A DNA stretch of 44,786 nt from Naegleria gruberi (Eukaryota). Shown here one piece after another: positions 538 to 44,090 of the stretch; positions within the stretch are counted from its first letter, which is position 1; each line of letters opens with the position of its first letter. Location of the stretch: the NCBI GenBank assembly GCA_000004985.1, contig GG738965.1. The stretch is one strand, 5' to 3'. Position numbers and translations under genes: made by a program. Below the pieces are notes generated by a model. That model saw only the letters and a program-made list of their open reading frames with translations, made no database searches and was not told the DNA's origin.

Positions 538-2661
538 TTATTTATTTTTAATTAAAATAGATTGACCTGACATTTCAATATTTTTATAACATTTAAAAAT
601 ATTAATATTTGAATTTTTAAATAATTTAAATTCCCATGTATTTTCTAAATTATTTTTAAAATTTTCAATTGTATTTTTTTTAAATACATATTTAGTAATA
701 ATTTTATAACTTGAACGATTTTTTCTTGTTTGTTTATGAAGAGGTTGACAACAATTAATTACTATAAATGTATTATTATATTCAGTTACACAAATTAAAT
801 CTCTATAAAAACAAATTTCATTTAAATAATCTTCATTAACATTTTCTTTAATTGTAAATTCTAATTTTCCTTTTTTAGTATTATTTAATTTATTAAATTC
901 TAAAATATAAATATCATCATCAATTACAATATCACTAGGTTTACCTAAACTTCCTTTTTTAATACAAATTAATTCTTTAACATGTTTTTTTTGATAATAT
1001 ATTGTTTTATAATAATTTAAATTTAATATTTCATTATTATTACCATTTATATTATTATTATTAGAATTATTAGATAATTCATTTGATGATTTAATTGATT
1101 CAGTAAATTCTTCCAATGATAATTGTTTTTTAGTATTATTATTTGTATTAATATTATTATTATTATTATTGGTTGTATTGTTAATATTTTTTGAATTATT
1201 ATTTGATGATTTTAATTTTTTTCTATTTAATTGTTTTGATTGTTTTGAAAAAGTTAAATAACANNNNNNNNNNNNNNNNNNNNNNNNNNNNNNNNNNNNN
1301 NNNNNNNNNNNNNNNNNNNNNNNNNNNNNNNNNNNNNNNNNNNNNNNNNNNNNNNNNNNNNNNNNNNNNNNNNNNNNNNNNNNNNNNNNNNNNNNNNNNN
1401 NNNNNNNNNNNNNNNNNNNNNNNNNNNNNNNNNNNNNNNNNNNNNNNNNNNNNNNNNNNNNNNNNNNNNNNNNNNNNNNNNNNNNNNNNNNNNNNNNNNN
1501 NNNNNNNNNNNNNNNNNNNNNNNNNNNNNNNNNNNNNNNNNNNNNNNNNNNNNNNNNNNNNNNNNNNNNNNNNNNNNNNNNNNNNNNNNNNNNNNNNNNN
1601 NNNNNNNNNNNNNNNNNNNNNNNNNNNNNNNNNNNNNNNNNNNNNNNNNNNNNNNNNNNNNNNNNNNNNNNNNNNNNNNNNNNNNNNNNNNNNNNNNNNN
1701 NNNNNNNNNNNNNNNNNNNNNNNNNNNNNNNNNNNNNNNNNNNNNNNNNNNNNNNNNNNNNNNNNNNNNNNNNNNNNNNNNNNNNNNNNNNNNNNNNNNN
1801 NNNNNNNNNNNNNNNNNNNNNNNNNNNNNNNNNNNNNNNNNNNNNNNNNNNNNNNNNNNNNNNNNNNNNNNNNNNNNNNNNNNNNNNNNNNNNNNNNNNN
1901 NNNNNNNNNNNNNNNNNNNNNNNNNNNNNNNNNNNNNNNNNNNNNNNNNNNNNNNNNNNNNNNNNNNNNNNNNNNNNNNNNNNNNNNNNNNNNNNNNNNN
2001 NNNNNNNNNNNNNNNNNNNNNNNNNNNNNNNNNNNNNNNNNNNNNNNNNNNNNNNNNNNNNNNNNNNNNNNNNNNNNNNNNNNNNNNNNNNNNNNNNNNN
2101 NNNNNNNNNNNNNNNNNNNNNNNNNNNNNNNNNNNNNNNNNNNNNNNNNNNNNNNNNNNNNNNNNNNNNNNNNNNNNNNNNNNNNNNNNNNNNNNNNNNN
2201 NNNNNNNNNNNNNNNNNNNNNNNNNNNNNNNNNNNNNNNNNNNNNNNNNNNNNNNNNNNNNNNNNNNNNNNNNNNNNNNNNNNNNNNNNNNNNNNNNNNN
2301 NNNNNNNNNNNNNNNNNNNNNNNNNNNNNNNNNNNNNNNNNNNNNNNNNNNNNNNNNNNNNNNNNNNNNNNNNNNNNNNNNNNNNNNNNNNNNNNNNNNN
2401 NNNNNNNNNNNNNNNNNNNNNNNNNNNNNNNNNNNNNNNNNNNNNNNNNNNNNNNNNNNNNNNNNNNNNNNNNNNNNNNNNNNNNNNNNNNNNNNNNNNN
2501 NNNNNNNNNNNNNNNNNNNNNNNNNNNNNNNNNNNNNNNNNNNNNNNNNNNNNNNNNNNNNNNNNNNNNNNNNNNNNNNNNNNNNNNNNNNNNACAGCAG
2601 GAACAGGTGAAGAAGGATCAGTGGAGATATATACTTCCAACAAATTTAAATATTTAACCAT
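538..2661 (-). CDS. hypothetical poly-Asn protein, middle 1264-2593 masked
   Basis: ATG at 2661-2659 (MVKYLNLLEVYISTDPSSPVPA) runs into the mask. The same frame resumes at 1263 and ends at TAA (plus tta 538-540). The 241-aa visible C-terminal part has Asn homopolymers and a Lys-rich globular tail with no family I can name. Convergent with the previous gene; stops are 37 nt apart. Confidence 0.5.
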   Translation of the reverse strand: MVKYLNLLEVYISTDPSSPVPAXXXXXXXXXXXXXXXXXXXXXXXXXXXXXXXXXXXXXXXXXXXXXXXXXXXXXXXXXXXXXXXXXXXXXXXXXXXXXXXXXXXXXXXXXXXXXXXXXXXXXXXXXXXXXXXXXXXXXXXXXXXXXXXXXXXXXXXXXXXXXXXXXXXXXXXXXXXXXXXXXXXXXXXXXXXXXXXXXXXXXXXXXXXXXXXXXXXXXXXXXXXXXXXXXXXXXXXXXXXXXXXXXXXXXXXXXXXXXXXXXXXXXXXXXXXXXXXXXXXXXXXXXXXXXXXXXXXXXXXXXXXXXXXXXXXXXXXXXXXXXXXXXXXXXXXXXXXXXXXXXXXXXXXXXXXXXXXXXXXXXXXXXXXXXXXXXXXXXXXXXXXXXXXXXXXXXXXXXXXXXXXXXXXXXXXXXXXXXXXXXXXXXXXXXXXXXXXXXXXXXXXXXXXXXXXXXXXXXXXXXXXXCYLTFSKQSKQLNRKKLKSSNNNSKNINNTTNNNNNNINTNNNTKKQLSLEEFTESIKSSNELSNNSNNNNINGNNNEILNLNYYKTIYYQKKHVKELICIKKGSLGKPSDIVIDDDIYILEFNKLNNTKKGKLEFTIKENVNEDYLNEICFYRDLICVTEYNNTFIVINCCQPLHKQTRKNRSSYKIITKYVFKKNTIENFKNNLENTWEFKLFKNSNINIFKCYKNIEMSGQSILIKNK
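1152..1170 (-). repeat. (ATT)n / (AAT)n trinucleotide run encoding poly-Asn
   Basis: tattattattattattatt seen directly; lies within the coding sequence of the 538-2661 gene. Confidence 0.7.
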
Positions 2662-2825: not shown

Positions 2826-4298
2826 CTATTTTCTTGTCATTTCCTCATCATCAATTTCTTCCAAATCTTCTTCTTCTTCCTTATCACTGTTAAGTGAATC
2901 TAAATCATCTGATAATCTTGTACTTGAATCATCATTATCTGATTTTGAAATATTCTTCTTCATTTCTTCTTCATTATCATTATCATTGTTATTATCATCC
3001 TTATTATCATCATTATTATCATTCTTATTTAATAAATTAATTGATTTTAAAATATGATAATGTTTAAAACATTCTAAATGATTATTTCTTTTTAACCATG
3101 GTTTATAAAATTTTAATTCCTTTCTAATAGATTTACGTGAATGTTGAATTGGATCTGGATATTTCATTAATTGATACATTTCAGAATTAGTTTGATCAAA
3201 CATTTCAAAAAGTAAATCAATAAAAAAAGGATTATATAAACCAGTACGTGTCATTCTATGAATTTTAAATATTTCAATTGCTTTTTCAACATTTTCAATA
3301 ATTTTCTTTTTTAATAAATAATAACAAATTACAAAACCAGTTCTATTTAAACCATGTGTACAATGAATTAAAATATATTTAGTAGGATTATTAGAAATAT
3401 ATAAATCAATATCATTTACAATTGTATCCATTTGTTCTGTAAATAATTTTACATTTAAATTCTTATTTAAATCATGAATATTCATATAATATGATAAATA
3501 TTTCATATTTAAAGGTAAATCATTCTTTTTATAAAATTCAACACAACATAAATCAATTATTAATCCAATATCTTGTTCATATTTGGTATTAAAATGTTCT
3601 TGTATTAATGAAATGGATGAATTATTTGGATATTTAAAATATTGTGGACTTAATGGACATTTAAGTGGAATAAATTTAGTATTGGGTATTAATTCTCCAA
3701 ATAAGGGTGTTACTTGTGGCCAACCTTTGGGAATTTTACGATACTTCTTAGAATTGGAAAAATAATTTCTAATTACATTTTGACTTGAATTATTTAAATT
3801 ATTATCTAAATTATTATTATCTAAATTATTATTATTTAAATTATTATTTAAATTATTATCTAAATTATTATTATTGGTGGAAGAGGAGGTGGTAGTATTA
3901 TTATTATTATTATCATTGGTGGTATTTAAATTATCTGATGATGATGATGTATTTGAAGATAGTTGATTAATATAATCTGTTACATTCCGTATGGCAAATG
4001 GATATTTTGAAATATAATTTTCATTATTATAATAGTTTCCTCCTCCTGTTGAATATGATGATGATGATGTAGTAGTATTATTATTAGATGATCCATTATT
4101 ATCATCATTAGATGATGAATTTGTACTATTATTTGTGTAAGAAGAAGAATCGGAGTAGTTTTGATATTTTTGTTTCTTGTAATTTCGTCTCCTATATGAT
4201 GATGATCCACTTCTTGAATTTCCATAATTATTATATCCACCATCATGATGGTATGATCTCTTTTCACTACTACGATGATGATTATTACTATCACTCAT
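2826..4298 (-). CDS. stand-alone cysteine-phosphatase-fold RNA 5'-phosphatase (DUSP11/PIR1-like or mRNA-capping-enzyme triphosphatase-like), 490 aa
   Basis: Uninterrupted ORF from ATG 4298 to stop at 2826. Central domain carries KIPKGWPQVTPLFGELIPNTKFIPLKCPL, IGLIIDLCCVEFYKKNDLP and the P-loop ILIHCTHGLNRTGFVICYYLL (HCxxGxxRT). These match DUSP11 (VHCTHGLNRTGYLICRYL) and the Mce1 triphosphatase domain (VHCTHGFNRTGF). No KxDG guanylyltransferase domain follows. N-terminal third is a Ser/Asn/Tyr/Arg low-complexity region and the C-terminus is an acidic Asp/Glu/Asn tail. Confidence 0.7.
   Translation of the reverse strand: MSDSNNHHRSSEKRSYHHDGGYNNYGNSRSGSSSYRRRNYKKQKYQNYSDSSSYTNNSTNSSSNDDNNGSSNNNTTTSSSSYSTGGGNYYNNENYISKYPFAIRNVTDYINQLSSNTSSSSDNLNTTNDNNNNNTTTSSSTNNNNLDNNLNNNLNNNNLDNNNLDNNLNNSSQNVIRNYFSNSKKYRKIPKGWPQVTPLFGELIPNTKFIPLKCPLSPQYFKYPNNSSISLIQEHFNTKYEQDIGLIIDLCCVEFYKKNDLPLNMKYLSYYMNIHDLNKNLNVKLFTEQMDTIVNDIDLYISNNPTKYILIHCTHGLNRTGFVICYYLLKKKIIENVEKAIEIFKIHRMTRTGLYNPFFIDLLFEMFDQTNSEMYQLMKYPDPIQHSRKSIRKELKFYKPWLKRNNHLECFKHYHILKSINLLNKNDNNDDNKDDNNNDNDNEEEMKKNISKSDNDDSSTRLSDDLDSLNSDKEEEEDLEEIDDEEMTRK
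3791..3875 (-). repeat. imperfect 12-18-nt tandem repeat (taaattattatt variants) encoding NNLDNN/NNLNNN reiterations
   Basis: Direct reading of the plus strand: ttatctaaattattattatctaaattattattatttaaattattatttaaattattatctaaattattattatt. In frame within the phosphatase N-terminal low-complexity region. Confidence 0.65.
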
Positions 4299-4554
4299 GA
4301 TGATGAAATAGTTCTTTTAGTATAACGGCTTTTTTTTGAATATTTTGAATCTAATAATTAGTTGAAGATATTATTGTGATTCTAATTGACTCTCCTGAGA
4401 TATCGAGATTACAAGTTAGGAGCCGAATTATTCTAGTGTAGGGAGTAGTTTGATGTACTTTAATCTAGTTATCATTTTGTATTATTTATAAGAACATCAG
4501 TTGTTTGTTGTATGAAGAGAATGATTTTCAAAGCCTAAAAAAAGAAGCAACATA
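4299..4554. promoter_or_regulatory. divergent promoter region between the RNA phosphatase gene (-) and the Hip gene (+)
   Basis: 256-nt non-coding interval flanked by two head-to-head start codons (4298 minus, 4555 plus). No specific motif identified. Confidence 0.35.
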
Positions 4555-6272
4555 ATGGAGGGTATCAAGTTTTCAGCCTTACAACTAGATTCCTTGAAGC
4601 AATTTGTAAAGGTTTGTTGTATTTATATATTACATTTCATTATAAGTGCAACGAATAATAATAATAGTATATTAAATACAATCCGAGAGTTTNNNNNNNN
4701 NNNNNNNNNNNNNNNNNNNNNNNNNNNNNNNNNNNNNNNNNNNNNNNNNNNNNNNNNNNNNNNNNNNNNNNNNNNNNNNNNNNNNNNNNNNNNNNNNNNN
4801 NNNNNNNNNNNNNNNNNNNNNNNNNNNNNNNNNNNNNNNNNNNNNNNNNNNNNNNNNNNNNNNNNNNNNNNNNNNNNNNNNNNNNNNNNNNNNNNNNNNN
4901 NNNNNNNNNNNNNNNNNNNNNNNNNNNNNNNNNNNNNNNNNNNNNNNNNNNNNNNNNNNNNNNNNNNNNNNNNNNNNNNNNNNNNNNNNNNNNNNNNNNN
5001 NNNNNNNNNNNNNNNNNNNNNNNNNNNNNNNNNNNNNNNNNNNNNNNNNNNNNNNNNNNNNNNNNNNNNNNNNNNNNNNNNNNNNNNNNNNNNNNNNNNN
5101 NNNNNNNNNNNNNNNNNNNNNNNNNNNNNNNNNNNNNNNNNNNNNNNNNNNNNNNNNNNNNNNNNNNNNNNNNNNNNNNNNNNNNNNNNNNNNNNNNNNN
5201 NNNNNNNNNNNNNNNNNNNNNNNNNNNNNNNNNNNNNNNNNNNNNNNNNNNNNNNNNNNNNNNNNNNNNNNNNNNNNNNNNNNNNNNNNNNNNNNNNNNN
5301 NNNNNNNNNNNNNNNNNNNNNNNNNNNNNNNNNNNNNNNNNNNNNNNNNNNNNNNNNNNNNNNNNNNNNNNNNNNNNNNNNNNNNNNNNNNNNNNNNNNN
5401 NNNNNNNNNNNNNNNNNNNNNNNNNNNNNNNNNNNNNNNNNNNNNNNNNNNNNNNNNNNNNNNNNNNNNNNNNNNNNNNNNNNNNNNNNNNNNNNNNNNN
5501 NNNNNNNNNNNNNNNNNNNNNNNNNNNNNNNNNNNNNNNNNNNNNNNNNNNNNNNNNNNNNNNNNNNNNNNNNNNNNNNNNNNNNNNNNNNNNNNNNNNN
5601 NNNNNNNNNNNNNNNNNNNNNNNNNNNNNNNNNNNNNNNNNNNNNNNNNNNNNNNNNNNNNNNNNNNNNNNNNNNNNNNNNNNNNNNNNNNNNNNNNNNN
5701 NNNNNNNNNNNNNNNNNNNNNNNNNNNNNNNNNNNNNNNNNNNNNNNNNNNNNNNNNNNNNNNNNNNNNNNNNNNNNNNNNNNNNNNNNNNNNNNNNNNN
5801 NNNNNNNNNNNNNNNNNNNNNNNNNNNNNNNNNNNNNNNNNNNNNNNNNNNNNNNNNNNNNNNNNNNNNNNNNNNNNNNNNNNNNNNNNNNNNNNNNNNN
5901 NNNNNNNNNNNNNNNNNNNNNNNNNNNNNNNNNNNNNNNNNNNNNNNNNNNNNNNNNNNNNNNNNNNNNNNNNNNNNNNNNNNNNNNNNNNNNNNNNNNN
6001 NNNNNNNNNNNNNNNNNNNNNNNNNNNNNNNNNNNNNNNNNNNNNNNNNNNNNNNNNNNNNNNNNNNNNNNNNNNAACTTTGTCATCCACATGTAATGAA
6101 ACTTGTTTCTGGAGATGAATATTTAATGAAAGGATTTCAAAATCCAAGACTCGTAAATGCAATTAATGAAATTGCTATGAATCCATCAGCCTTCTTGAAA
6201 TATAATCATGACATTGAGGTTGTAACAATGTTTAAAAAGTTTACAGAAATTATAGGAAAGGCAAATAAATAA
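4555..6272 (+). CDS. Hsc70-interacting protein (Hip/ST13-like co-chaperone); join(4555..4611,4668..6272), interior 4693-6075 masked
   Basis: Exon 1 MEGIKFSALQLDSLKQFVK ends at a GT donor (gtttgt, 4612). A 56-nt AT-rich intron ends ...aataatag (4667). Exon 2 begins YIKYNPRV, which matches the Hip N-terminus [23 protein letters not shown]. After the mask, in frame 0, KLVSGDEYLMKGFQNPRLVNAINEIAMNPSAFLKYNHDIEVVTMFKKFTEIIGKANK* (stop 6270-6272) aligns with the Hip C-terminal STI1/DP domain ([49 protein letters not shown]). The ORF-track end at 6096 is a different frame. The join across the mask is inferred. Confidence 0.55.
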
Positions 6273-6374: not shown

Positions 6375-6933
6375 ATGTCAAAAGTTAATGATGAACTAGA
6401 TTGTAATGAAATTGTTCCACGATTATTTCTCGGAAGTGAAGATGCTGCCTATGCAGATATCAATATATTAAAAGGAGAACCCTATAAATTCACTCATATT
6501 TGTGTATGTGGTTTCGGGCTCATTAAGAAACATGAGAAAACATCTCAAATTGAATATCATCATATCAAGGCTGTTGATTTACCAGTTTATAACATTACAA
6601 AAGATGTCAAATCATGTGCAGAGTTTATTGACAATGCACTGAATGGAGATGAAAATAATAGAGTACTTGTTCATGTAGGTTTGTTCTGATTAAAATTCAA
6701 ATAGGAACATATTAACTACAAACATTATCTAAATAATCATCATTGTAATTATATTAAATTATTATTATTAAAAGTGTTCAAGAGGAGTGAGTAGAAGTGC
6801 CTCCATAGTAACAGCCTACTTGATGTTGAAGAAGGGAATGACATTTGAAGAAGCATACTATGGTAATGTAAAGAAGAAACGTTCCATTGTTTGTCTCAAT
6901 CAAGGATTTGCAGAACAATTAAAAGGCTTGTAA
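6375..6933 (+). CDS. small classical dual-specificity protein phosphatase (DUSP), 153 aa; join(6375..6674,6775..6933)
   Basis: Exon 1 (MSKVNDELDC...RVLVH) ends at donor gtaggt (6675). A 100-nt AT-rich intron ends ...ttattaaaag (6774). Exon 2 CSRGVSRSASIVTAYLMLKKGMTFEEAYYGNVKKKRSIVCLNQGFAEQLKGL* (stop 6931-6933) restores the catalytic motif VHCSRGVSRS (CX5R). Upstream LFLGSEDAAYA and the acid loop AVDLPVYNI are typical DUSP. A-rich start context aaaaATG. Confidence 0.75.
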
Positions 6934-8142
6934 ATTACTAAAGAACAATAGAATATTGTGGTGATGTAATCAGAATTGAAACAAGCCATCCATCATCACT
7001 CTCGTATCGCTGTTGGTTTGTCTCATAGCAACGTTGATGATGTTGGTGTACAACAAGCAGATTAATTGCCATCATGATACCACAATGAACCCTTTATCCG
7101 TAAATCATCATTGATTCCAATATTTCAGCAACAATATTTGCGCAATCAGGCATGTTCACAACAAAATGATTGATGGTGATGAGATTGCCAGTAGGGAACA
7201 ATTGTGTTTTCTTCCTCTTGTTTGCAAAGTTTTTTAGCGGGTTTTTCCAAGTGAAAGAAGAAAACTTTGTTGTTAAAAAAACGAATCACAAAAATATTAG
7301 CGAACAAGTTGTTTGCCGCGCTTTTTGATTTTTTCAAAAGTAAAAAAACGATAAAGATTACCATCGCTCCGGTTTTCGTCATCACACAGCAGTAATTTAT
7401 ATAGATCATCATCATTTGNNNNNNNNNNNNNNNNNNNNNNNNNNNNNNNNNNNNNNNNNNNNNNNNNNNNNNNNNNNNNNNNNNNNNNNNNNNNNNNNNN
7501 NNNNNNNNNNNNNNNNNNNNNNNNNNNNNNNNNNNNNNNNNNNNNNNNNNNNNNNNNNNNNNNNNNNNNNNNNNNNNNNNNNNNNNNNNNNNNNNNNNNN
7601 NNNNNNNNNNNNNNNNNNNNNNNNNNNNNNNNNNNNNNNNNNNNNNNNNNNNNNNNNNNNNNNNNNNNNNNNNNNNNNNNNNNNNNNNNNNNNNNNNNNN
7701 NNNNNNNNNNNNNNNNNNNNNNNNNNNNNNNNNNNNNNNNNNNNNNNNNNNNNNNNNNNNNNNNNNNNNNNNNNNNNNNNNNNNNNNNNNNNNNNNNNNN
7801 NNNNNNNNNNNNNNNNNNNNNNNNNNNNNNNNNNNNNNNNNNNNNNNNNNNNNNNNNNNNNNNNNNNNNNNNNNNNNNNNNNNNNNNNNNNNNNNNNNNN
7901 NNNNNNNNNNNNNNNNNNNNNNNNNNNNNNNNNNNNNNNNNNNNNNNNNNNNNNNNNNNNNNNNNNNNNNNNNNNNNNNNNNNNNNNNNNNNNNNNNNNN
8001 NNNNNNNNNNNNNNNNNNNNNNNNNNNNNNNNNNNNNNNNNNNNNNNNNNNNNNNNNNNNNNNNNNNNNNNNNNNNNNNNNNNNNNNNNNNNNNNNNNNN
8101 NNNNNNNNNNNNNNNNNNNNNNNNNNNNNNNNNNNNNNNNNA

Positions 8143-8884: not shown

Positions 8885-9419
8885 TTTTGAGTATTAATTT
8901 TTCAATCATATGAAGAAATATATGTACTATACACAGGTACCAAATTTCAAAATTTCATCTCTTAAAACCATAGAAAGAATAATCTCAGTTTAGACACTTT
9001 TTTTTTTCCTATTAAAAATATTTTTATTTCCATGTTAAATGAGCCAATCTACATATTCACAAATATTCCATTCACAACCCATGGCTGGTAAGAATAGAGT
9101 GGTCAAAGGGCAAGCTTCGCTATTTCAAATCCCACCTTCTGCAGATTTTATTTCCATATTTTTCGATTGAAATATATTTCCTAATACGTTTTTATCACAA
9201 TCTGCAAAGTTGGTATTCAGATGAAAATTTCATCAATTATTCCCCTATGAATATAATATTTATTAACAATTTTTAATTTTGAATTAATAGAACGGTTTCT
9301 GCTATTTCAAAATCTCGCGAATAATAATTGAGAATCTCAAATTGTGTATTCTCACTCATGACATCATCACATTGTAACTCGTGATAATTGTTTCCCTTCA
9401 GTTCCATAAATTAAAAAAA

Positions 9420-9911
9420 ATGTCAAACTTTGTTGATCTACCATCCGAGTTGCAAATTGAAATATTTTCCAATCTCTCTGTTAAACATTTAAAAAACATT
9501 CTTTCTATTAACAAATCAACTCATGAGCAATTGGTTCAATCAGAAACTTTTTGGAGAACTTTGATCAAGAATTATTCGAAATTGTTAGGAAGTGATTCTA
9601 GAGTTGAAAAATCAGTACAAGAATTATTAGAAATTGCAGAAATCAAGAAAAAATTCATTGAATTGATAGAAATGAAAAAGAGAACCACTGAAGAATTCCA
9701 AATGACATCTCTGAAATTAAAATACATGTTGAGAGAATTAGAAATGGCTCAGAGAGAAATGCAAGCAGGAAATGAAAGTGTTTTGCTATTAGGAGGAACC
9801 ATCAGCGATCAGCTCAATATTGGAATGGAAAGAATGAAACAAGAATGTGAAAGTGTGAAAAAGGAAAAGGAAGAAATTGAAGAAAAGTTAAGGAAATTGA
9901 TTATTGATTAA
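9420..9911 (+). CDS. F-box domain protein with C-terminal coiled coil, 163 aa
   Basis: ATG at 9420 in context ttaaaaaaaaATG. The track start at 9381 is a GTG codon. F-box consensus LPSELQIEIFSNLSVKHLKNILSINKSTHEQLVQSETFW. The remainder is a Glu/Lys-rich heptad-like region. Stop TAA 9909-9911. Confidence 0.7.
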   Translation: MSNFVDLPSELQIEIFSNLSVKHLKNILSINKSTHEQLVQSETFWRTLIKNYSKLLGSDSRVEKSVQELLEIAEIKKKFIELIEMKKRTTEEFQMTSLKLKYMLRELEMAQREMQAGNESVLLLGGTISDQLNIGMERMKQECESVKKEKEEIEEKLRKLIID

Positions 9912-10705: not shown

Positions 10706-12011
10706 TTAGTATGAATAAGGTTGAAAATTGAATACAATCCAAACATAGGTGAATGATCCAACAATAACACAAAACGAGACAAACATGATAATGATTTGAA
10801 TAATAAATCCCAACCATTTCTTTTCCTTCTTAATCATACATAAAATTGTAATGAATGCAAATGAAGTGATCAAGTAAGCAATTGTAATGCAAATAAAATA
10901 ACCTCTTGAAATGGAAATTATTTTGAATGCCATGACAATTCCACACAATCCTTCAAATATAGCAAGTAATATTAAATAACCAATGAGTAGAAATATGGCA
11001 TTCAATCTATAAACATGTTCTTGATTAACTAAATTGTTGTCACATGTCTCTTCATTATTCACCTGTTCTTGATTCGAATTGTTTTGAGGAGTATAACTCA
11101 TGTCAAGTTTAGAATTAAATAAAGTTTGCTTGATGGTGTGTAAGTGCTTTCTCAGTTTTACAGAGATTGTCTCTTTGAAAGTAATCATCTCTTGATTCGA
11201 TTTCTTCTTTCCATTCTTTTTTTCCTTAATCCATAAAAGTAATTTTTCACCAAGAGTAATTTTAGGAACATTCGAATACAGAGCTCTATAGAATGGCATT
11301 ATAAATTCCAATAAAGAAAGTAAAAGTAATGAAGAAATCAATGGTTGAAAGAAATTGAAAATATTCCACTTTCCAAATGTCTTTTCATACTTTACAATAA
11401 TTGGAATTAAATAAAGTAAATGNNNNNNNNNNNNNNNNNNNNNNNNNNNNNNNNNNNNNNNNNNNNNNNNNNNNNNNNNNNNNNNNNNNNNNNNNNNNNN
11501 NNNNNNNNNNNNNNNNNNNNNNNNNNNNNNNNNNNNNNNNNNNNNNNNNNNNNNNNNNNNNNNNNNNNNNNNNNNNNNNNNNNNNNNNNNNNNNNNNNNN
11601 NNNNNNNNNNNNNNNNNNNNNNNNNNNNNNNNNNNNNNNNNNNNNNNNNNNNNNNNNNNNNNNNNNNNNNNNNNNNNNNNNNNNNNNNNNNNNNNNNNNN
11701 NNNNNNNNNNNNNNNNNNNNNNNNNNNNNNNNNNNNNNNNNNNNNNNNNNNNNNNNNNNNNNNNNNNNNNNATATTCATCTTTTACTCTTGATGGATATT
11801 TTTCAATGAATGAATTATTTCCTAAATTAATAAAAAGAGTTTCTTCTGAATCAGGAGTTTCATGATTATCAGTACTATGAGAATTAGTTTGTGAAAAATT
11901 TAGATCGTTATTGGGTGAGTCAAGTATTGTTTGTATTTCGTCTTGATTATTCTCATTCCGATCATTATTAGAAAGTAAATGTTGTGATTCACCTTCCTCT
12001 TTGTTTGACAT
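10706..12011 (-). CDS. multi-pass membrane protein with hydrophilic N-terminal extension (hypothetical); interior 11423-11771 masked
   Basis: Start ATG at 12011-12009 in context aaaaaaaATGtcaaac (MSNKEEGESQHLLSNNDRNENNQDEIQ...FIEKYPSRVKDEY). After the mask a different frame carries at least six hydrophobic helices and ends VWIVFNFQPYSY* at 10706. The frame change implies an intron or indel inside the mask. The track's MKSISKYEMEMFWKIVRISLKK extension is less likely. Confidence 0.5.
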
Positions 12012-12131
12012 TTTTTTTAAAGAGATTCTTACAATCTTCCAAAACATTTCCATTTCATATTTTGAAATTGATTTCACACCACCTAATAATATATTTAATT
12101 GAATAAAAATTATATTAATTTAATAAAAAAA
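12012..12131. promoter_or_regulatory. 120-nt bidirectional promoter interval between the membrane-protein gene (-) and the GNAT gene (+)
   Basis: Head-to-head ATGs at 12011 (minus) and 12132 (plus) separated by AT-rich sequence with A-runs adjacent to both starts. Confidence 0.4.
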
Positions 12132-12662
12132 ATGAGTAAACCAAGTAGTGATAATAATAATTTCATCACATTCAGAGCAGCAACGGAACAAGATGGACCA
12201 CAAATTCTAGAAATGGTCACTCAAATTCTTACTAAATATGGTCTTAAACAAATTCAAGATCCTTCCGATAATATTGATGATGATTTATTAAATATTGAAA
12301 AGTATTACTTTACAAATAATGGTTATTTAGAAATAGTTGAATTAAATTCCAATTCTTCATCCATTGAATCAAAAATTATTGCCAGTTGTGGAATTTATAA
12401 ATTATCCGAAAGTAAATGTGAATTGAGAAAAATGTATTTGAGAGAGGAATATAGAGGAAAGGGATTAGGTAGAAAATTATTGGAAAGAGCCATAGAAAAA
12501 GCTAAGGAAATGAATTATAAACAAATGGAATTGGAAACTGCTTCTGTTTTAGTGGAGGCACTTGCATTGTATGAAAAATTTGGATTTTCAAGAGTTATTG
12601 ATTGTGAGGATAAACATTTATGTTCAAGATGTGATATTATTATGATTAAAGATTTAGTTTAA
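12132..12662 (+). CDS. GNAT-family N-acetyltransferase, 176 aa
   Basis: ATG 12132 in aaaaaaaATGagt; the track start at 12099 is a TTG codon. Acetyl-CoA binding motif A seen as LRKMYLREEYRGKGLGRKLLERAIEKAKEMNYKQMELET (R/QxxGxG/A), followed by ALYEKFGF, typical of the GNAT fold. Stop TAA 12660-12662. Confidence 0.8.
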   Translation: MSKPSSDNNNFITFRAATEQDGPQILEMVTQILTKYGLKQIQDPSDNIDDDLLNIEKYYFTNNGYLEIVELNSNSSSIESKIIASCGIYKLSESKCELRKMYLREEYRGKGLGRKLLERAIEKAKEMNYKQMELETASVLVEALALYEKFGFSRVIDCEDKHLCSRCDIIMIKDLV

Positions 12663-41396: not shown

Positions 41397-43307
41397 GACT
41401 TTTCTATCTTGCTTAAGATTTAATAATATAAGATCTATCAAATCGAGCAATGTGCTTAACAGAAACACCAGATAAAATAGCTCAGCGTTTTGTTATAGAG
41501 CTCTTGAATGAATCATTCAAAATAGTATTGGTGAGATAATGTAGTCAATCCATGAATATATTCTTTATAAAATACACCTTTTAATATGTCCTTACAAGGT
41601 GGCCTTTTGTCTGGATTGTAATGTAACTTATCTTTCCATCAAAATAATCCTCCAAATTTCTCTTCTCTATCAAAATTTTCACAACTTGTTTTCCATACCA
41701 CAAATCGATTTTGCAATCATCTAAATGTTTCACTAATTATGTTAAATTGTATAATATTTTGTAAAATGGACCAGTTATCCCTTCGCCTTTACATTTAAAG
41801 GAAAGATAGCATTGAACCACTGTTTTGAAACCAATGCACAATTCATTACAATCATCATGAAATGATAAAATTTCATAAATTACATCGTTCGAATGTTTCT
41901 CCTGTGAGTTGTGACATTTTTTGATGATGACAAGTTGATTCCTATCAACAACATGTTACTCCAATAGTTGTAAAAACAATTTGTAGAAAAGATATTATTG
42001 GTTCCTTCAATAGAACGGATAGGGTTGTTTTCAAAACATTCTGTTGAGAACAAAATTGGGAAAAACCTTAAAATTTCAAATCTTTCGTGGATATCATGAT
42101 TATNNNNNNNNNNNNNNNNNNNNNNNNNNNNNNNNNNNNNNNNNNNNNNNNNNNNNNNNNNNNNNNNNNNNNNNNNNNNNNNNNNNNNNNNNNNNNNNNN
42201 NNNNNNNNNNNNNNNNNNNNNNNNNNNNNNNNNNNNNNNNNNNNNNNNNNNNNNNNNNNNNNNNNNNNNNNNNNNNNNNNNNNNNNNNNNNNNNNNNNNN
42301 NNNNNNNNNNNNNNNNNNNNNNNNNNNNNNNNNNNNNNNNNNNNNNNNNNNNNNNNNNNNNNNNNNNNNNNNNNNNNNNNNNNNNNNNNNNNNNNNNNNN
42401 NNNNNNNNNNNNNNNNNNNNNNNNNNNNNNNNNNNNNNNNNNNNNNNNNNNNNNNNNNNNNNNNNNNNNNNNNNNNNNNNNNNNNNNNNNNNNNNNNNNN
42501 NNNNNNNNNNNNNNNNNNNNNNNNNNNNNNNNNNNNNNNNNNNNNNNNNNNNNNNNNNNNNNNNNNNNNNNNNNNNNNNNNNNNNNNNNNNNNNNNNNNN
42601 NNNNNNNNNNNNNNNNNNNNNNNNNNNNNNNNNNNNNNNNNNNNNNNNNNNNNNNNNNNNNNNNNNNNNNNNNNNNNNNNNNNNNNNNNNNNNNNNNNNN
42701 NNNNNNNNNNNNNNNNNNNNNNNNNNNNNNNNNNNNNNNNNNNNNNNNNNNNNNNNNNNNNNNNNNNNNNNNNNNNNNNNNNNNNNNNNNNNNNNNNNNN
42801 NNNNNNNNNNNNNNNNNNNNNNNNNNNNNNNNNNNNNNNNNNNNNNNNNNNNNNNNNNNNNNNNNNNNNNNNNNNNNNNNNNNNNNNNNNNNNNNNNNNN
42901 NNNNNNNNNNNNNNNNNNNNNNNNNNNNNNNNNNNNNNNNNNNNNNNNNNNNNNNNNNNNNNNNNNNNNNNNNNNNNNNNNNNNNNNNNNNNNNNNNNNN
43001 NNNNNNNNNNNNNNNNNNNNNNNNNNNNNNNNNNNNNNNNNNNNNNNNNNNNNNNNNNNNNNNNNNNNNNNNNNNNNNNNNNNNNNNNNNNNNNNNNNNN
43101 NNNNNNNNNNNNNNNNNNNNNNNNNNNNNNNNNNNNNNNNNNNNNNNNNNNNNNNNNNNNNNNNNNNNNNNNNNNNNNNNNNNNNNNNNNNNNNNNNNNN
43201 NNNNNNNNNNNNNNNNNNNNNNNNNNNNNNNNNNNNNNNNNNNNNNNNNNNNNNNNNNNNNNNNNNNNNNNNNNNNNNNNNNNNNNNNNNNNNNNNNNNN
43301 NNNNNNT

Positions 43308-44090
43308 TTTGCTGGTGAAAAGGAACCAAAAGCACTCTTTCCTGGTTCAGATGATGTGAATCAGCTTGAAAAGATATTTGAATGGTGTGGTACTCCTTCA
43401 ACGGAAGAATGGGCTGAGGTTGAAAATCTTGCTCATTGGAATGCTCTTAAACCAAAAGAATCAAAGAAGAGAAGACTCTTGGAAAGATTTGCAAACTTGA
43501 AATCATGCTCAAAGAAGGTTCTAGATTTACTTGATAAGCTTCTTGTGCTTAATCCTGCCAAACGATTAACAACCAATGAATGCTTAAATCACGACTGGTT
43601 CTGGGAAAAGGGTTCCACAACCAATATCAAACTCAAAAATCTTCCTTCAACAGCTACTAATGAATTCCTTACAAGAAAGAAGGGTGATAACAAACCAAAT
43701 GCACCTTCACATCAATTACCAGGTTCTACCAGTGTCCAACAGTTGCCACACAATATTAATCAGAGCTATGGTGTTTCATCTACATCATCCTCTCATCCAC
43801 CATTTGGTAGTAGTAATGGTAACAGACATTCCTATAATCCCTCTCACCATCATCAATCGTCACACCATAGCAGTCATCATTCGAACACTAGCTCCTCTCA
43901 CCATAATGGTAGCTCACATCATAATAGTCACCACCATCACCAATCATCACATCACCACTCTAGTAGCTCACATCATGGCTCAACTGGTTCAGGTCATTCC
44001 AATAATTATCATCGTGACAATAGGCATCACCATGATCCTCCTCAAAGAAATAACCAATTAGCACCTCCAAATAAGAAGGTTAAATATTAA
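43308..44090 (+). CDS. CDK9/P-TEFb-type cyclin-dependent kinase, C-terminal lobe plus His/Ser-rich tail (catalytic N-terminal part in mask 42104-43306; true start undetermined)
   Basis: FAGEKEPKALFPGSDDVNQLEKIFEWCGTPSTEEWAEVENLAHWNALKPKESKKRRLLERFANL... VLDLLDKLLVLNPAKRLTTNECLNHDWFWE aligns with human CDK9 ...PIMQGNTEQHQLALISQLCGSITPEVWPNV... ALDLIDKLLVLDPAQRIDSDDALNHDFFW. It is followed by ~150 aa of low complexity ending ...PPNKKVKY* (TAA 44088-44090). The frame-0 ORF is continuous into the mask from 42087, and another frame has an ATG at 42044. Confidence 0.7.
   Translation, partial: FAGEKEPKALFPGSDDVNQLEKIFEWCGTPSTEEWAEVENLAHWNALKPKESKKRRLLERFANLKSCSKKVLDLLDKLLVLNPAKRLTTNECLNHDWFWEKGSTTNIKLKNLPSTATNEFLTRKKGDNKPNAPSHQLPGSTSVQQLPHNINQSYGVSSTSSSHPPFGSSNGNRHSYNPSHHHQSSHHSSHHSNTSSSHHNGSSHHNSHHHHQSSHHHSSSSHHGSTGSGHSNNYHRDNRHHHDPPQRNNQLAPPNKKVKY
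43850..44040 (+). repeat. cat/cac/agc-rich coding low-complexity tract encoding (S/H)n: SHHHQSSHHSSHHSNTSSSHHNGSSHHNSHHHHQSSHHHSSSSHH
   Basis: Seen directly in the CDK tail. The antisense shadow ORF 43660-44061 is an artefact of this repeat. Confidence 0.65.

What the first reader, a model, noticed from the sequence alone, without database searches (positions are those of the whole stretch)
2826..4298. Stand-alone PIR1/DUSP11- or capping-enzyme-type RNA 5'-phosphatase with RS/Tyr-rich and poly-Asn N-terminus and acidic tail
The catalytic core (KIPKGW...FIPLKCPL, IGLIIDLCCVEFYKKNDLP, ILIHCTHGLNRTGFVICYYLL) is the RNA-specific branch of the cysteine-phosphatase fold, shared by metazoan capping-enzyme triphosphatase domains and DUSP11. 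No guanylyltransferase module (KxDG) is attached. So this is either a split capping-enzyme triphosphatase or a DUSP11-like RNA 5'-tri/diphosphatase acting on small RNAs. The N-terminal SEKRSYHHDGGYNNYGNSRSGSSSYRRRNYKKQKYQNY segment looks like an RS/RGG-type RNA-binding low-complexity region, which is unusual for this family.
Basis: partly seen in the sequence, partly recalled or inferred. Interest (0 to 1): 0.5.

Follow-up and report, generated by a model that had tools for sequence, protein, structure and literature searches.

The report
Stand-alone RNA 5'-phosphatase gene in Naegleria
This is an intact Naegleria gruberi gene for a free-standing enzyme of the small family that strips phosphates from the 5' triphosphate ends of RNA (relatives of human DUSP11/PIR1 and of the capping-enzyme triphosphatase); it extends a known family to an amoeboflagellate and is not a new kind of system.

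Summary

The subfamily is unresolved. NJ bootstraps, subgroup HMMs and structure scores do not separate PIR1-like from capping-type. Architecture and the Leu in the P-loop favour a PIR1-like RNA polyphosphatase. I could not find out which capping triphosphatase Naegleria uses, so a split capping enzyme stays possible (~0.13).

The "RS/RGG, unusual for the family" claim fails: there are 4 RS/SR dipeptides and no RGG, and human DUSP11 also has Arg-rich flanks. The sister-species orthologues carry a CCCH zinc finger at that position.

Verdict: new member of a known kind, moderate-low interest.

The parts
2826..4298 (-). Complete intronless CDS (490 aa plus stop at 2826-2828) = N. gruberi XP_002668728.1 / NAEGRDRAFT_76349
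4149..4298 (-). aa 1-50: basic (+6) Tyr/Ser/Arg/His-rich disordered segment with an NLS-like basic cluster R36-K44 (RRRNYKKQK). The N. fowleri and N. lovaniensis orthologues have a CCCH zinc finger at this position
   Evidence: Homology to the finger is not supported
4023..4148 (-). aa 51-92: Ser/Asn/Thr-rich low-complexity linker, predicted disordered
3969..4007 (-). aa 98-110: KYPFAIRNVTDYI, a short motif conserved in all Naegleria-type orthologues (YPFAIRN / NPFAISN / YPFSISN); function unknown
   Evidence: alignment A1
3783..3950 (-). aa 117-172: poly-Asn / NNL(D/N) repeat region (50% Asn) encoded by 12- and 27-nt tandem repeats; absent from the orthologues
3183..3782 (-). aa 173-372: cysteine-phosphatase catalytic core of the RNA 5'-phosphatase branch (Mce1-TPase / PIR1 / BVP type)
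3336..3365 (-). aa 312-321: P-loop HCTHGLNRTG; predicted nucleophile Cys313 (3360-3362) and phosphate-binding Arg319 (3342-3344)
   Evidence: consensus HCTHGXNRT quoted in PMC5785229
3024..3182 (-). aa 373-425: basic (+8) helical C-terminal extension conserved among Naegleria orthologues and partly in Acrasis; no Pfam or PDB counterpart
2829..3023 (-). aa 426-490: acidic Asp/Glu/Asn-rich disordered tail (net -20); differs by indels between the two N. gruberi copies; absent from the orthologues
4299..4554 (.). 256-bp divergent intergenic region shared with the Hip (HipN/TPR) gene that starts at 4555 (+); stops in all frames, no room for a zinc-finger exon

Best explanation
The gene encodes a catalytically competent, free-standing RNA 5'-polyphosphatase of the cysteine-phosphatase RNA branch. 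Inferred mechanism, taken from characterised family members: Cys313 in the P-loop HCTHGLNRTG attacks the terminal phosphate of a 5'-triphosphorylated RNA. Arg319 and the loop amides hold that phosphate. A cysteinyl-phosphate intermediate forms and is hydrolysed without metal. The most likely role is PIR1/DUSP11/BVP-like: converting ppp-RNA (and pp-RNA) ends of non-capped transcripts to lower phosphorylation states. Candidate substrates are Pol III transcripts, RNA-dependent RNA polymerase or Dicer substrates, and viral RNAs. This would control their stability, their loading into silencing complexes or their ligatability. It probably does not act as the mRNA-capping triphosphatase. The disordered basic N-terminal segment (a CCCH zinc finger in N. 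fowleri and N. lovaniensis) and the basic C-terminal extension are inferred to supply RNA binding and nuclear targeting. The poly-Asn and acidic stretches are species-specific low-complexity additions. Shown: the ORF, the fold, the family, the intact catalytic motif, the stand-alone architecture and conservation across Heterolobosea. Inferred: the activity, the substrates, beta-phosphate removal and the cellular role.
Against: Subfamily placement is unresolved. In NJ bootstraps, the split between GTase-fused and stand-alone proteins gets 125/500. The first outside group joined to the Naegleria lineage is PIR1 in 229/500 replicates and capping enzymes in 147/500. Subgroup HMMs score capping-type TPase higher (114 bits) than metazoan DUSP11 (96 bits). 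The C-terminal helix (GLYNPFFIDLLF) resembles the capping-enzyme version more than the vertebrate DUSP11 one. I could not establish which triphosphatase or guanylyltransferase Naegleria uses for capping. No biochemical, expression or localisation data exist for this protein.
Confidence: 0.6

Rival explanations
1. Split capping enzyme. The protein is the mRNA-capping RNA triphosphatase of Heterolobosea, a cysteine-phosphatase-type TPase encoded separately from the guanylyltransferase. It removes only the gamma phosphate of nascent Pol II transcripts.
For: By sequence the domain is at least as close to capping-enzyme TPase domains as to metazoan DUSP11 (114 vs 96 bits; 131 vs 119 bits for the clade profile). 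It shares the capping-type C-terminal helix. The phylogeny does not exclude derivation from a capping enzyme. I found no other Naegleria member of the family and no Naegleria capping TPase, although those searches could not have shown one.
Against: Every GTase-associated TPase recovered here is fused to its GTase and has Phe or Tyr in the P-loop, not Leu. To my knowledge, no cellular organism has a free-standing Cys-type capping TPase. Related Discoba (trypanosomes) use a tunnel-type metal-dependent TPase (PMC4791841 abstract). The sister-species orthologues carry an RNA-binding CCCH finger and not a polymerase- or GTase-docking module. The N-terminal architecture differs between congeneric species. 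The nearest relative is source-annotated as PIR1.
Confidence: 0.13
2. End-healing enzyme for an RNA ligation or repair pathway. It converts 5'-ppp or 5'-pp ends to the 5'-p needed by an ATP-dependent RNA ligase. This is a special case of the PIR1-like reading.
For: In N. lovaniensis and N. fowleri the gene is convergent with, and 25-55 bp from, a 581-584-aa T4-Rnl1-type RNA ligase gene (PF09511). A PAP/OAS1-type nucleotidyltransferase gene lies nearby.
Against: Gene adjacency in eukaryotes is weak evidence, and the two species are close relatives, so this counts as one observation. The N. gruberi locus is rearranged and shows no ligase similarity in its readable part. Acrasis and the P0003 and P0017 loci have unrelated neighbours.
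Confidence: 0.07
3. Not an RNA enzyme. It is a protein- or lipid-directed atypical dual-specificity phosphatase, or a non-catalytic phospho-ligand binder.
For: Pfam files it only under the generic DSPc family (5.9e-10). Human PIR1 has weak activity on phosphoprotein substrates (PMC5785229).
Confidence: 0.07

Closest known systems
PIR1 / DUSP11 (human; C. elegans PIR-1): stand-alone RNA 5'-tri/diphosphatase
   Different: It does not group robustly with metazoan PIR1. It scores only 96 bits against a metazoan DUSP11 HMM, whereas capping TPases score about 150. It has a different C-terminal helix and a lineage-specific helical extension (aa 373-425). It also has a 3-residue deletion in the loop after the PLSP motif, a DLCC motif in place of DLT.T, and poly-Asn and acidic tails.
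Triphosphatase domain of the metazoan/plant-type mRNA capping enzyme (RNGTT / Mce1, residues 1-210)
   Different: No guanylyltransferase (PF01331/PF03919) is fused. The P-loop has Leu where all 10 GTase-fused relatives have Phe or Tyr.
Baculovirus phosphatase BVP (polynucleotide 5'-phosphatase, PDB 1yn9)
   Different: BVP is a minimal viral 168-aa protein without flanking regions. The present protein is cellular, and its relatives sit in ordinary protist genomes.
Stand-alone DSPc proteins of oomycetes (Phytophthora, Peronospora, Plasmopara and others; some auto-named 'mRNA-capping enzyme-like')
   Same: Protist, stand-alone, 190-340 aa. They are among the best matches to the heterolobosean clade profile (1e-38 to 1e-33).
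   Different: They do not form a supported group with the Naegleria lineage (0/500). They are uncharacterised. Saprolegnialean relatives have tandem domains.

Membership tests
RNA-specific branch of cysteine phosphatases (capping-enzyme TPase / PIR1 / BVP) | P-loop consensus HCTHGxNRT(G) with the catalytic Cys and Arg | tested here: met
   HCTHGLNRTG at aa 312-321. The consensus is quoted in PMC5785229.
RNA-specific branch of cysteine phosphatases (capping-enzyme TPase / PIR1 / BVP) | Sequence closer to RNA phosphatases than to protein or lipid phosphatases | tested here: met
   RNGTT, PIR1 and BVP score 1e-16 to 1e-10 against PTEN at 1e-3. The clade profile gives 115-131 bits against 37 bits. 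All 20 near-invariant positions of 150 relatives are kept.
RNA-specific branch of cysteine phosphatases (capping-enzyme TPase / PIR1 / BVP) | Fold matches the solved RNA phosphatases best | tested here: met
RNA-specific branch of cysteine phosphatases (capping-enzyme TPase / PIR1 / BVP) | Metal-independent, Cys-dependent hydrolysis of the 5' gamma-phosphate of ppp-RNA | not testable with these tools
   This needs recombinant protein and labelled ppp-RNA.
PIR1 / DUSP11 subfamily | Stand-alone protein with no guanylyltransferase domain | tested here: met
PIR1 / DUSP11 subfamily | Phylogenetic grouping with metazoan PIR1 to the exclusion of capping-enzyme TPase domains | tested here: inconclusive
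PIR1 / DUSP11 subfamily | Removes both beta and gamma phosphates (ppp-RNA to p-RNA) | not testable with these tools
   This property defines PIR1 family members as against capping TPases (10.1101/2020.08.03.235143).
PIR1 / DUSP11 subfamily | Basic (Arg-rich) segments flanking the core | tested here: met
   aa 1-50 have net charge +6 with the cluster RRRNYKKQK, and aa 373-425 have net charge +8. The human features are described in PMC5785229. This is a loose, compositional criterion.
Metazoan/plant-type bifunctional mRNA capping enzyme | TPase domain fused to a GTase (PF01331 + PF03919, KxDG nucleotidyl-transferase motifs) | tested here: not met
   No such Pfam hit at E<=1. The ORF ends in an acidic tail. 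No GTase is found in the readable window, and the orthologues also lack it.
Metazoan/plant-type bifunctional mRNA capping enzyme | Aromatic residue (Phe/Tyr) at the variable P-loop position.
   10 of 10 GTase-fused relatives with an intact loop have Phe or Tyr; this protein has Leu.
CCCH zinc-finger / RNA-phosphatase fusion (N. fowleri and N. lovaniensis orthologues) | C-x7-C-x5-C-x3-H finger N-terminal to the phosphatase core | tested here: not met
   aa 1-185 contain no Cys. No CCCH pattern occurs in any frame of the readable window. Similarity of the Y/R/S-rich stretch to the finger is at chance level (142-744 of 2000 shuffles).

The most novel reading that the evidence does not exclude
Heterolobosea cap their mRNAs with a split enzyme in which this free-standing cysteine-phosphatase-type triphosphatase works with a separately encoded guanylyltransferase. 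To my knowledge no cellular organism is known to do this: Cys-type capping triphosphatases are otherwise always fused to the guanylyltransferase. The arrangement would be an intermediate between the fungal/protozoal split system and the metazoan/plant fused system.
Probability: 0.12. Interest if true: 0.6.

Novelty: new member of a known kind. Interest (0 to 1): 0.3.

Why it matters
PIR1/DUSP11 is described in the literature as a metazoan protein (PMC5785229). This gene and its relatives in Acrasis, other Naegleria species, unidentified protists and oomycetes show that free-standing RNA 5'-polyphosphatases of this fold are widespread among protists. That would be consistent with an early eukaryotic origin, but the unresolved phylogeny does not establish it. 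Control of RNA 5'-triphosphate ends matters for small-RNA loading, RNA decay and self/non-self discrimination. Naegleria has Dicer homologues, and its genus includes the lethal pathogen N. fowleri, whose orthologue has an added CCCH RNA-binding finger. The practical value is a defined candidate for biochemical work and for settling how Heterolobosea cap their mRNAs. It does not reveal a new mechanism.

Tried and rejected
1. Missed 5' exon with a CCCH finger or GTase: rejected. The 256-bp upstream region has stops in all frames and abuts the divergent Hip gene. No CCCH pattern occurs anywhere in the readable window.

2. The Tyr/Arg/Ser-rich stretch as a degenerate zinc finger: rejected. The local alignment score is reached by 7-37% of shuffles, and aa 1-185 contain no Cys.

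3. Conserved linkage to the T4-Rnl1-type RNA ligase: seen in N. lovaniensis and N. fowleri only. There is no ligase similarity in the readable N. gruberi window, but 1264-2593 is masked.

4. Finding Naegleria's own capping enzyme: failed. A profile search with eight diverse GTase domains found 1,236 hits, but only the best 120 are listed and all are metazoan. Five literature searches gave nothing.

5. Using the clade-profile search (119 of 120 top hits stand-alone, including C. elegans PIR-1) as evidence for PIR1 affinity: discounted. Candidates are selected by shared 5-mers, and words such as HGLNR favour PIR1-type loops. The list also missed the query's own sequences.

6. Subfamily assignment by NJ phylogeny on 146 and 51 taxa: only the Naegleria clade is robust (200/200 and 500/500). 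Everything deeper is below 30%. The first Biopython bootstrap timed out.

7. Giant-virus origin of the clade: not supported. The 82-kb contig of relative P0017 carries ordinary eukaryotic genes (SHMT, PEPCK, TAF8, dynein light chain).

8. The first AF2 run on the full-length protein with 12 sequences was poor (pLDDT 57). It was replaced by a core-only run with 46 sequences.

Full report
**1. What is there**

Window 2826-4298 on the minus strand is a single 490-codon ORF. An in-frame stop lies six codons upstream of the ATG. At the window's 28.9% GC, an open stretch this long has a chance probability near 1e-18 by my arithmetic.

The protein is identical to NCBI XP_002668728.1 / NAEGRDRAFT_76349, a "predicted protein" of Naegleria gruberi, and the window is that organism's 44,786-bp scaffold. 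A second N. gruberi copy (NAEGRDRAFT_74005, 504 aa, on a 250-kb scaffold) is 95% identical. It differs by a single residue in the catalytic core and by indels in the low-complexity parts. This looks like an allelic or very recent duplicate under purifying selection on the core. About 72% of the window is N, and only 12.7 kb is readable.

**2. Anatomy**

- aa 1-50 are basic (+6) and rich in Ser, Tyr, Arg and His, with a cluster RRRNYKKQK.
- aa 51-92 are Ser/Asn/Thr-rich.
- aa 98-110 (KYPFAIRNVTDYI) are a short motif conserved in all Naegleria-type orthologues.
- aa 117-172 are 50% Asn, encoded by 12/27-nt tandem repeats.
- aa 173-372 are the phosphatase core.
- aa 373-425 are a basic helical extension conserved within the genus.
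- aa 426-490 are an acidic tail with net charge -20.

AlphaFold predicts residues 1-196 and 428-487 to be disordered. A second run on aa 165-425 with 46 sequences gives a confident model (pLDDT 87.5, pTM 0.86).

**3. Family**

Pfam sees only the generic DSPc family (5.9e-10). Solved-structure comparison is sharper. By sequence, human RNGTT triphosphatase scores 8.7e-17, PIR1/DUSP11 2.6e-16 and baculovirus BVP 6.6e-10, with PTEN next at 1e-3. A profile of the protist clade scores 131, 119 and 115 bits against these three, and 37 bits against the next hit.

The P-loop HCTHGLNRTG fits the RNA-triphosphatase consensus HCTHGXNRT quoted in PMC5785229. The protein keeps all 20 near-invariant positions of its 150 best relatives. 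Membership of the RNA-specific branch is therefore met on every testable criterion.

**4. Stand-alone architecture and relatives**

No guanylyltransferase domain is present. The 256-bp 5' flank is a divergent promoter shared with a Hip gene and has stops in all frames. No GTase occurs in the readable window.

An exhaustive HMMER search found 938 relatives. The nearest are the following:

- N. lovaniensis (433 aa) and N. fowleri (445 aa) orthologues;
- an unidentified Naegleria-like metagenomic protein;
- Acrasis kona P0014 (1e-34), annotated by its source as RNA/RNP complex-1-interacting phosphatase;
- metagenomic stand-alone proteins, one of which sits on an 82-kb contig with ordinary eukaryotic genes.

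The first GTase-fused enzyme (Ichthyophonus, 2.5e-17) appears at about the same level as the first DUSP11-type hits. Twelve of the 150 carry a GTase. All ten of those with an intact loop have Phe or Tyr at the variable P-loop position, where this protein and most stand-alone relatives have Leu.

**5. Subfamily: not resolved**

NJ trees recover the Naegleria clade at 100% and nothing deeper above 30%. In the balanced 51-taxon set, the capping | stand-alone split gets 125/500. The first outside partner of the Naegleria lineage is PIR1 in 229 replicates and capping enzymes in 147.

The clade-profile database search returned almost only stand-alone proteins: oomycetes, then metazoan PIR-1 including C. 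elegans. I discount this result because candidates are chosen by shared 5-mers, which favours Leu-type loops.

**6. The N-terminal segment**

It has four RS/SR dipeptides and no RGG, so it is not an RS or RGG domain. Human DUSP11 has Arg-rich segments at both ends, and the N-terminal one is needed for full activity in cells (PMC5785229). A basic flank is therefore typical of the family, not unusual.

The N. fowleri and N. lovaniensis orthologues carry a C-x7-C-x5-C-x3-H zinc finger at this position, in the same continuous ORF as the start of the core. N. gruberi has no cysteine in aa 1-185. Its similarity to the finger is at chance level, so a remnant cannot be claimed. NLS-like basic clusters occur at comparable positions in all orthologues.

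**7. Context**

In N. fowleri and N. lovaniensis the gene is convergent with a T4-Rnl1-type RNA ligase gene. The N. gruberi locus is rearranged. It keeps the divergent Hip neighbour but shows no ligase similarity in its readable part. Acrasis and the other relatives have unrelated neighbours. I treat the ligase link as a weak lead only.

**8. Mechanism and role**

By homology with Mce1, PIR1 and BVP, Cys313 should form a phosphocysteine intermediate with the terminal phosphate of ppp-RNA, and Arg319 should bind it. PIR1-family enzymes remove gamma and beta phosphates, whereas capping triphosphatases remove gamma only (10.1101/2020.08.03.235143).

Architecture, P-loop signature, the RNA-binding finger in the orthologues and the source annotation of the Acrasis protein favour a PIR1-like role on non-capped ppp-RNAs (confidence 0.6). 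N. gruberi has Dicer homologues, so a small-RNA role like that of C. elegans PIR-1 is possible but untested.

The split capping-enzyme reading stays open at about 0.13, because I could not learn what Naegleria uses for capping. [quoted passage not shown]

**9. Novelty**

No paper in the searchable library mentions the gene. It is a new, uncharacterised and divergent member of a known enzyme family. Its most notable aspects are the protist distribution of stand-alone members and the zinc-finger variant in the sister species. Interest is moderate-low.

Noticed in passing
window 6375-6674 and about 6775-6933 (+): A two-exon gene for a small classical dual-specificity phosphatase lies 2 kb from the RNA phosphatase gene. 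The sequence reads ...NRVLVH | ~100-nt intron | CSRGVSRSASIV..., and Pfam DSPc scores 1.5e-23. It belongs to a different branch of the same superfamily.
   Followed up: partly
L001 9914-11373 (N. lovaniensis); L005 8001-9396 (N. fowleri): The orthologues in the two sister species carry an N-terminal C-x7-C-x5-C-x3-H zinc finger fused to the RNA phosphatase core (source name 'C3H1-type domain-containing protein'). N. gruberi and the metagenomic P0003 lack it.
   Followed up: yes
L001 11426-13225 (-); L005 9420-11257 (-): A 581-584-aa T4-Rnl1-type RNA ligase gene (PF09511) is convergent with the phosphatase gene in N. lovaniensis and N. fowleri, and a PAP/OAS1-type gene lies a few kb further on. 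It is not detectable in the readable N. gruberi window.
   Followed up: partly
window 1264-2593, 4693-6075, 7419-8141, 11423-11771, 13790-40892, 42104-43306: Six N-runs cover about 72% of the window, including one of 27 kb. Neighbouring genes (Hip at 4555-6263, the gene at 538-2661) are only partly readable.
   Followed up: no
window 538-1263 (-): A 241-codon open stretch runs into the N-run. It has no Pfam match and no counterpart in the N. lovaniensis locus. It lies between the conserved 142-aa gene (18-500) and the phosphatase gene, at a rearrangement breakpoint relative to N. fowleri.
   Followed up: partly
relatives P0019, P0021 (Achlya), P0022 (Aphanomyces), P0020: Some relatives have two or three tandem RNA-phosphatase-type domains (saprolegnialean oomycetes). 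One metagenomic protein fuses an OTU protease domain to a copy whose P-loop His is replaced (VSCTFGINRTG).
   Followed up: no
150 best relatives: The variable P-loop residue in HCTHGxNRTG is Phe or Tyr in all 10 GTase-fused enzymes with an intact loop, and mostly Leu, Val or Ile in stand-alone proteins. This is a possible quick discriminator and needs a proper survey.
   Followed up: partly
window 43308-44087 (+): This is the C-terminal end of a protein kinase (Pfam Pkinase, last 40 profile positions), followed by a long Ser/His-rich tail (SHHHQSSHHSSHHS...).
   Followed up: no
window 12099-12662 (+) and 9381-9911 (+): The first is a GNAT acetyltransferase ORF (Acetyltransf_1, 8e-16). The second is a weak F-box-like ORF (below the Pfam cut-off). 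Both are unrelated to the finding.
   Followed up: no
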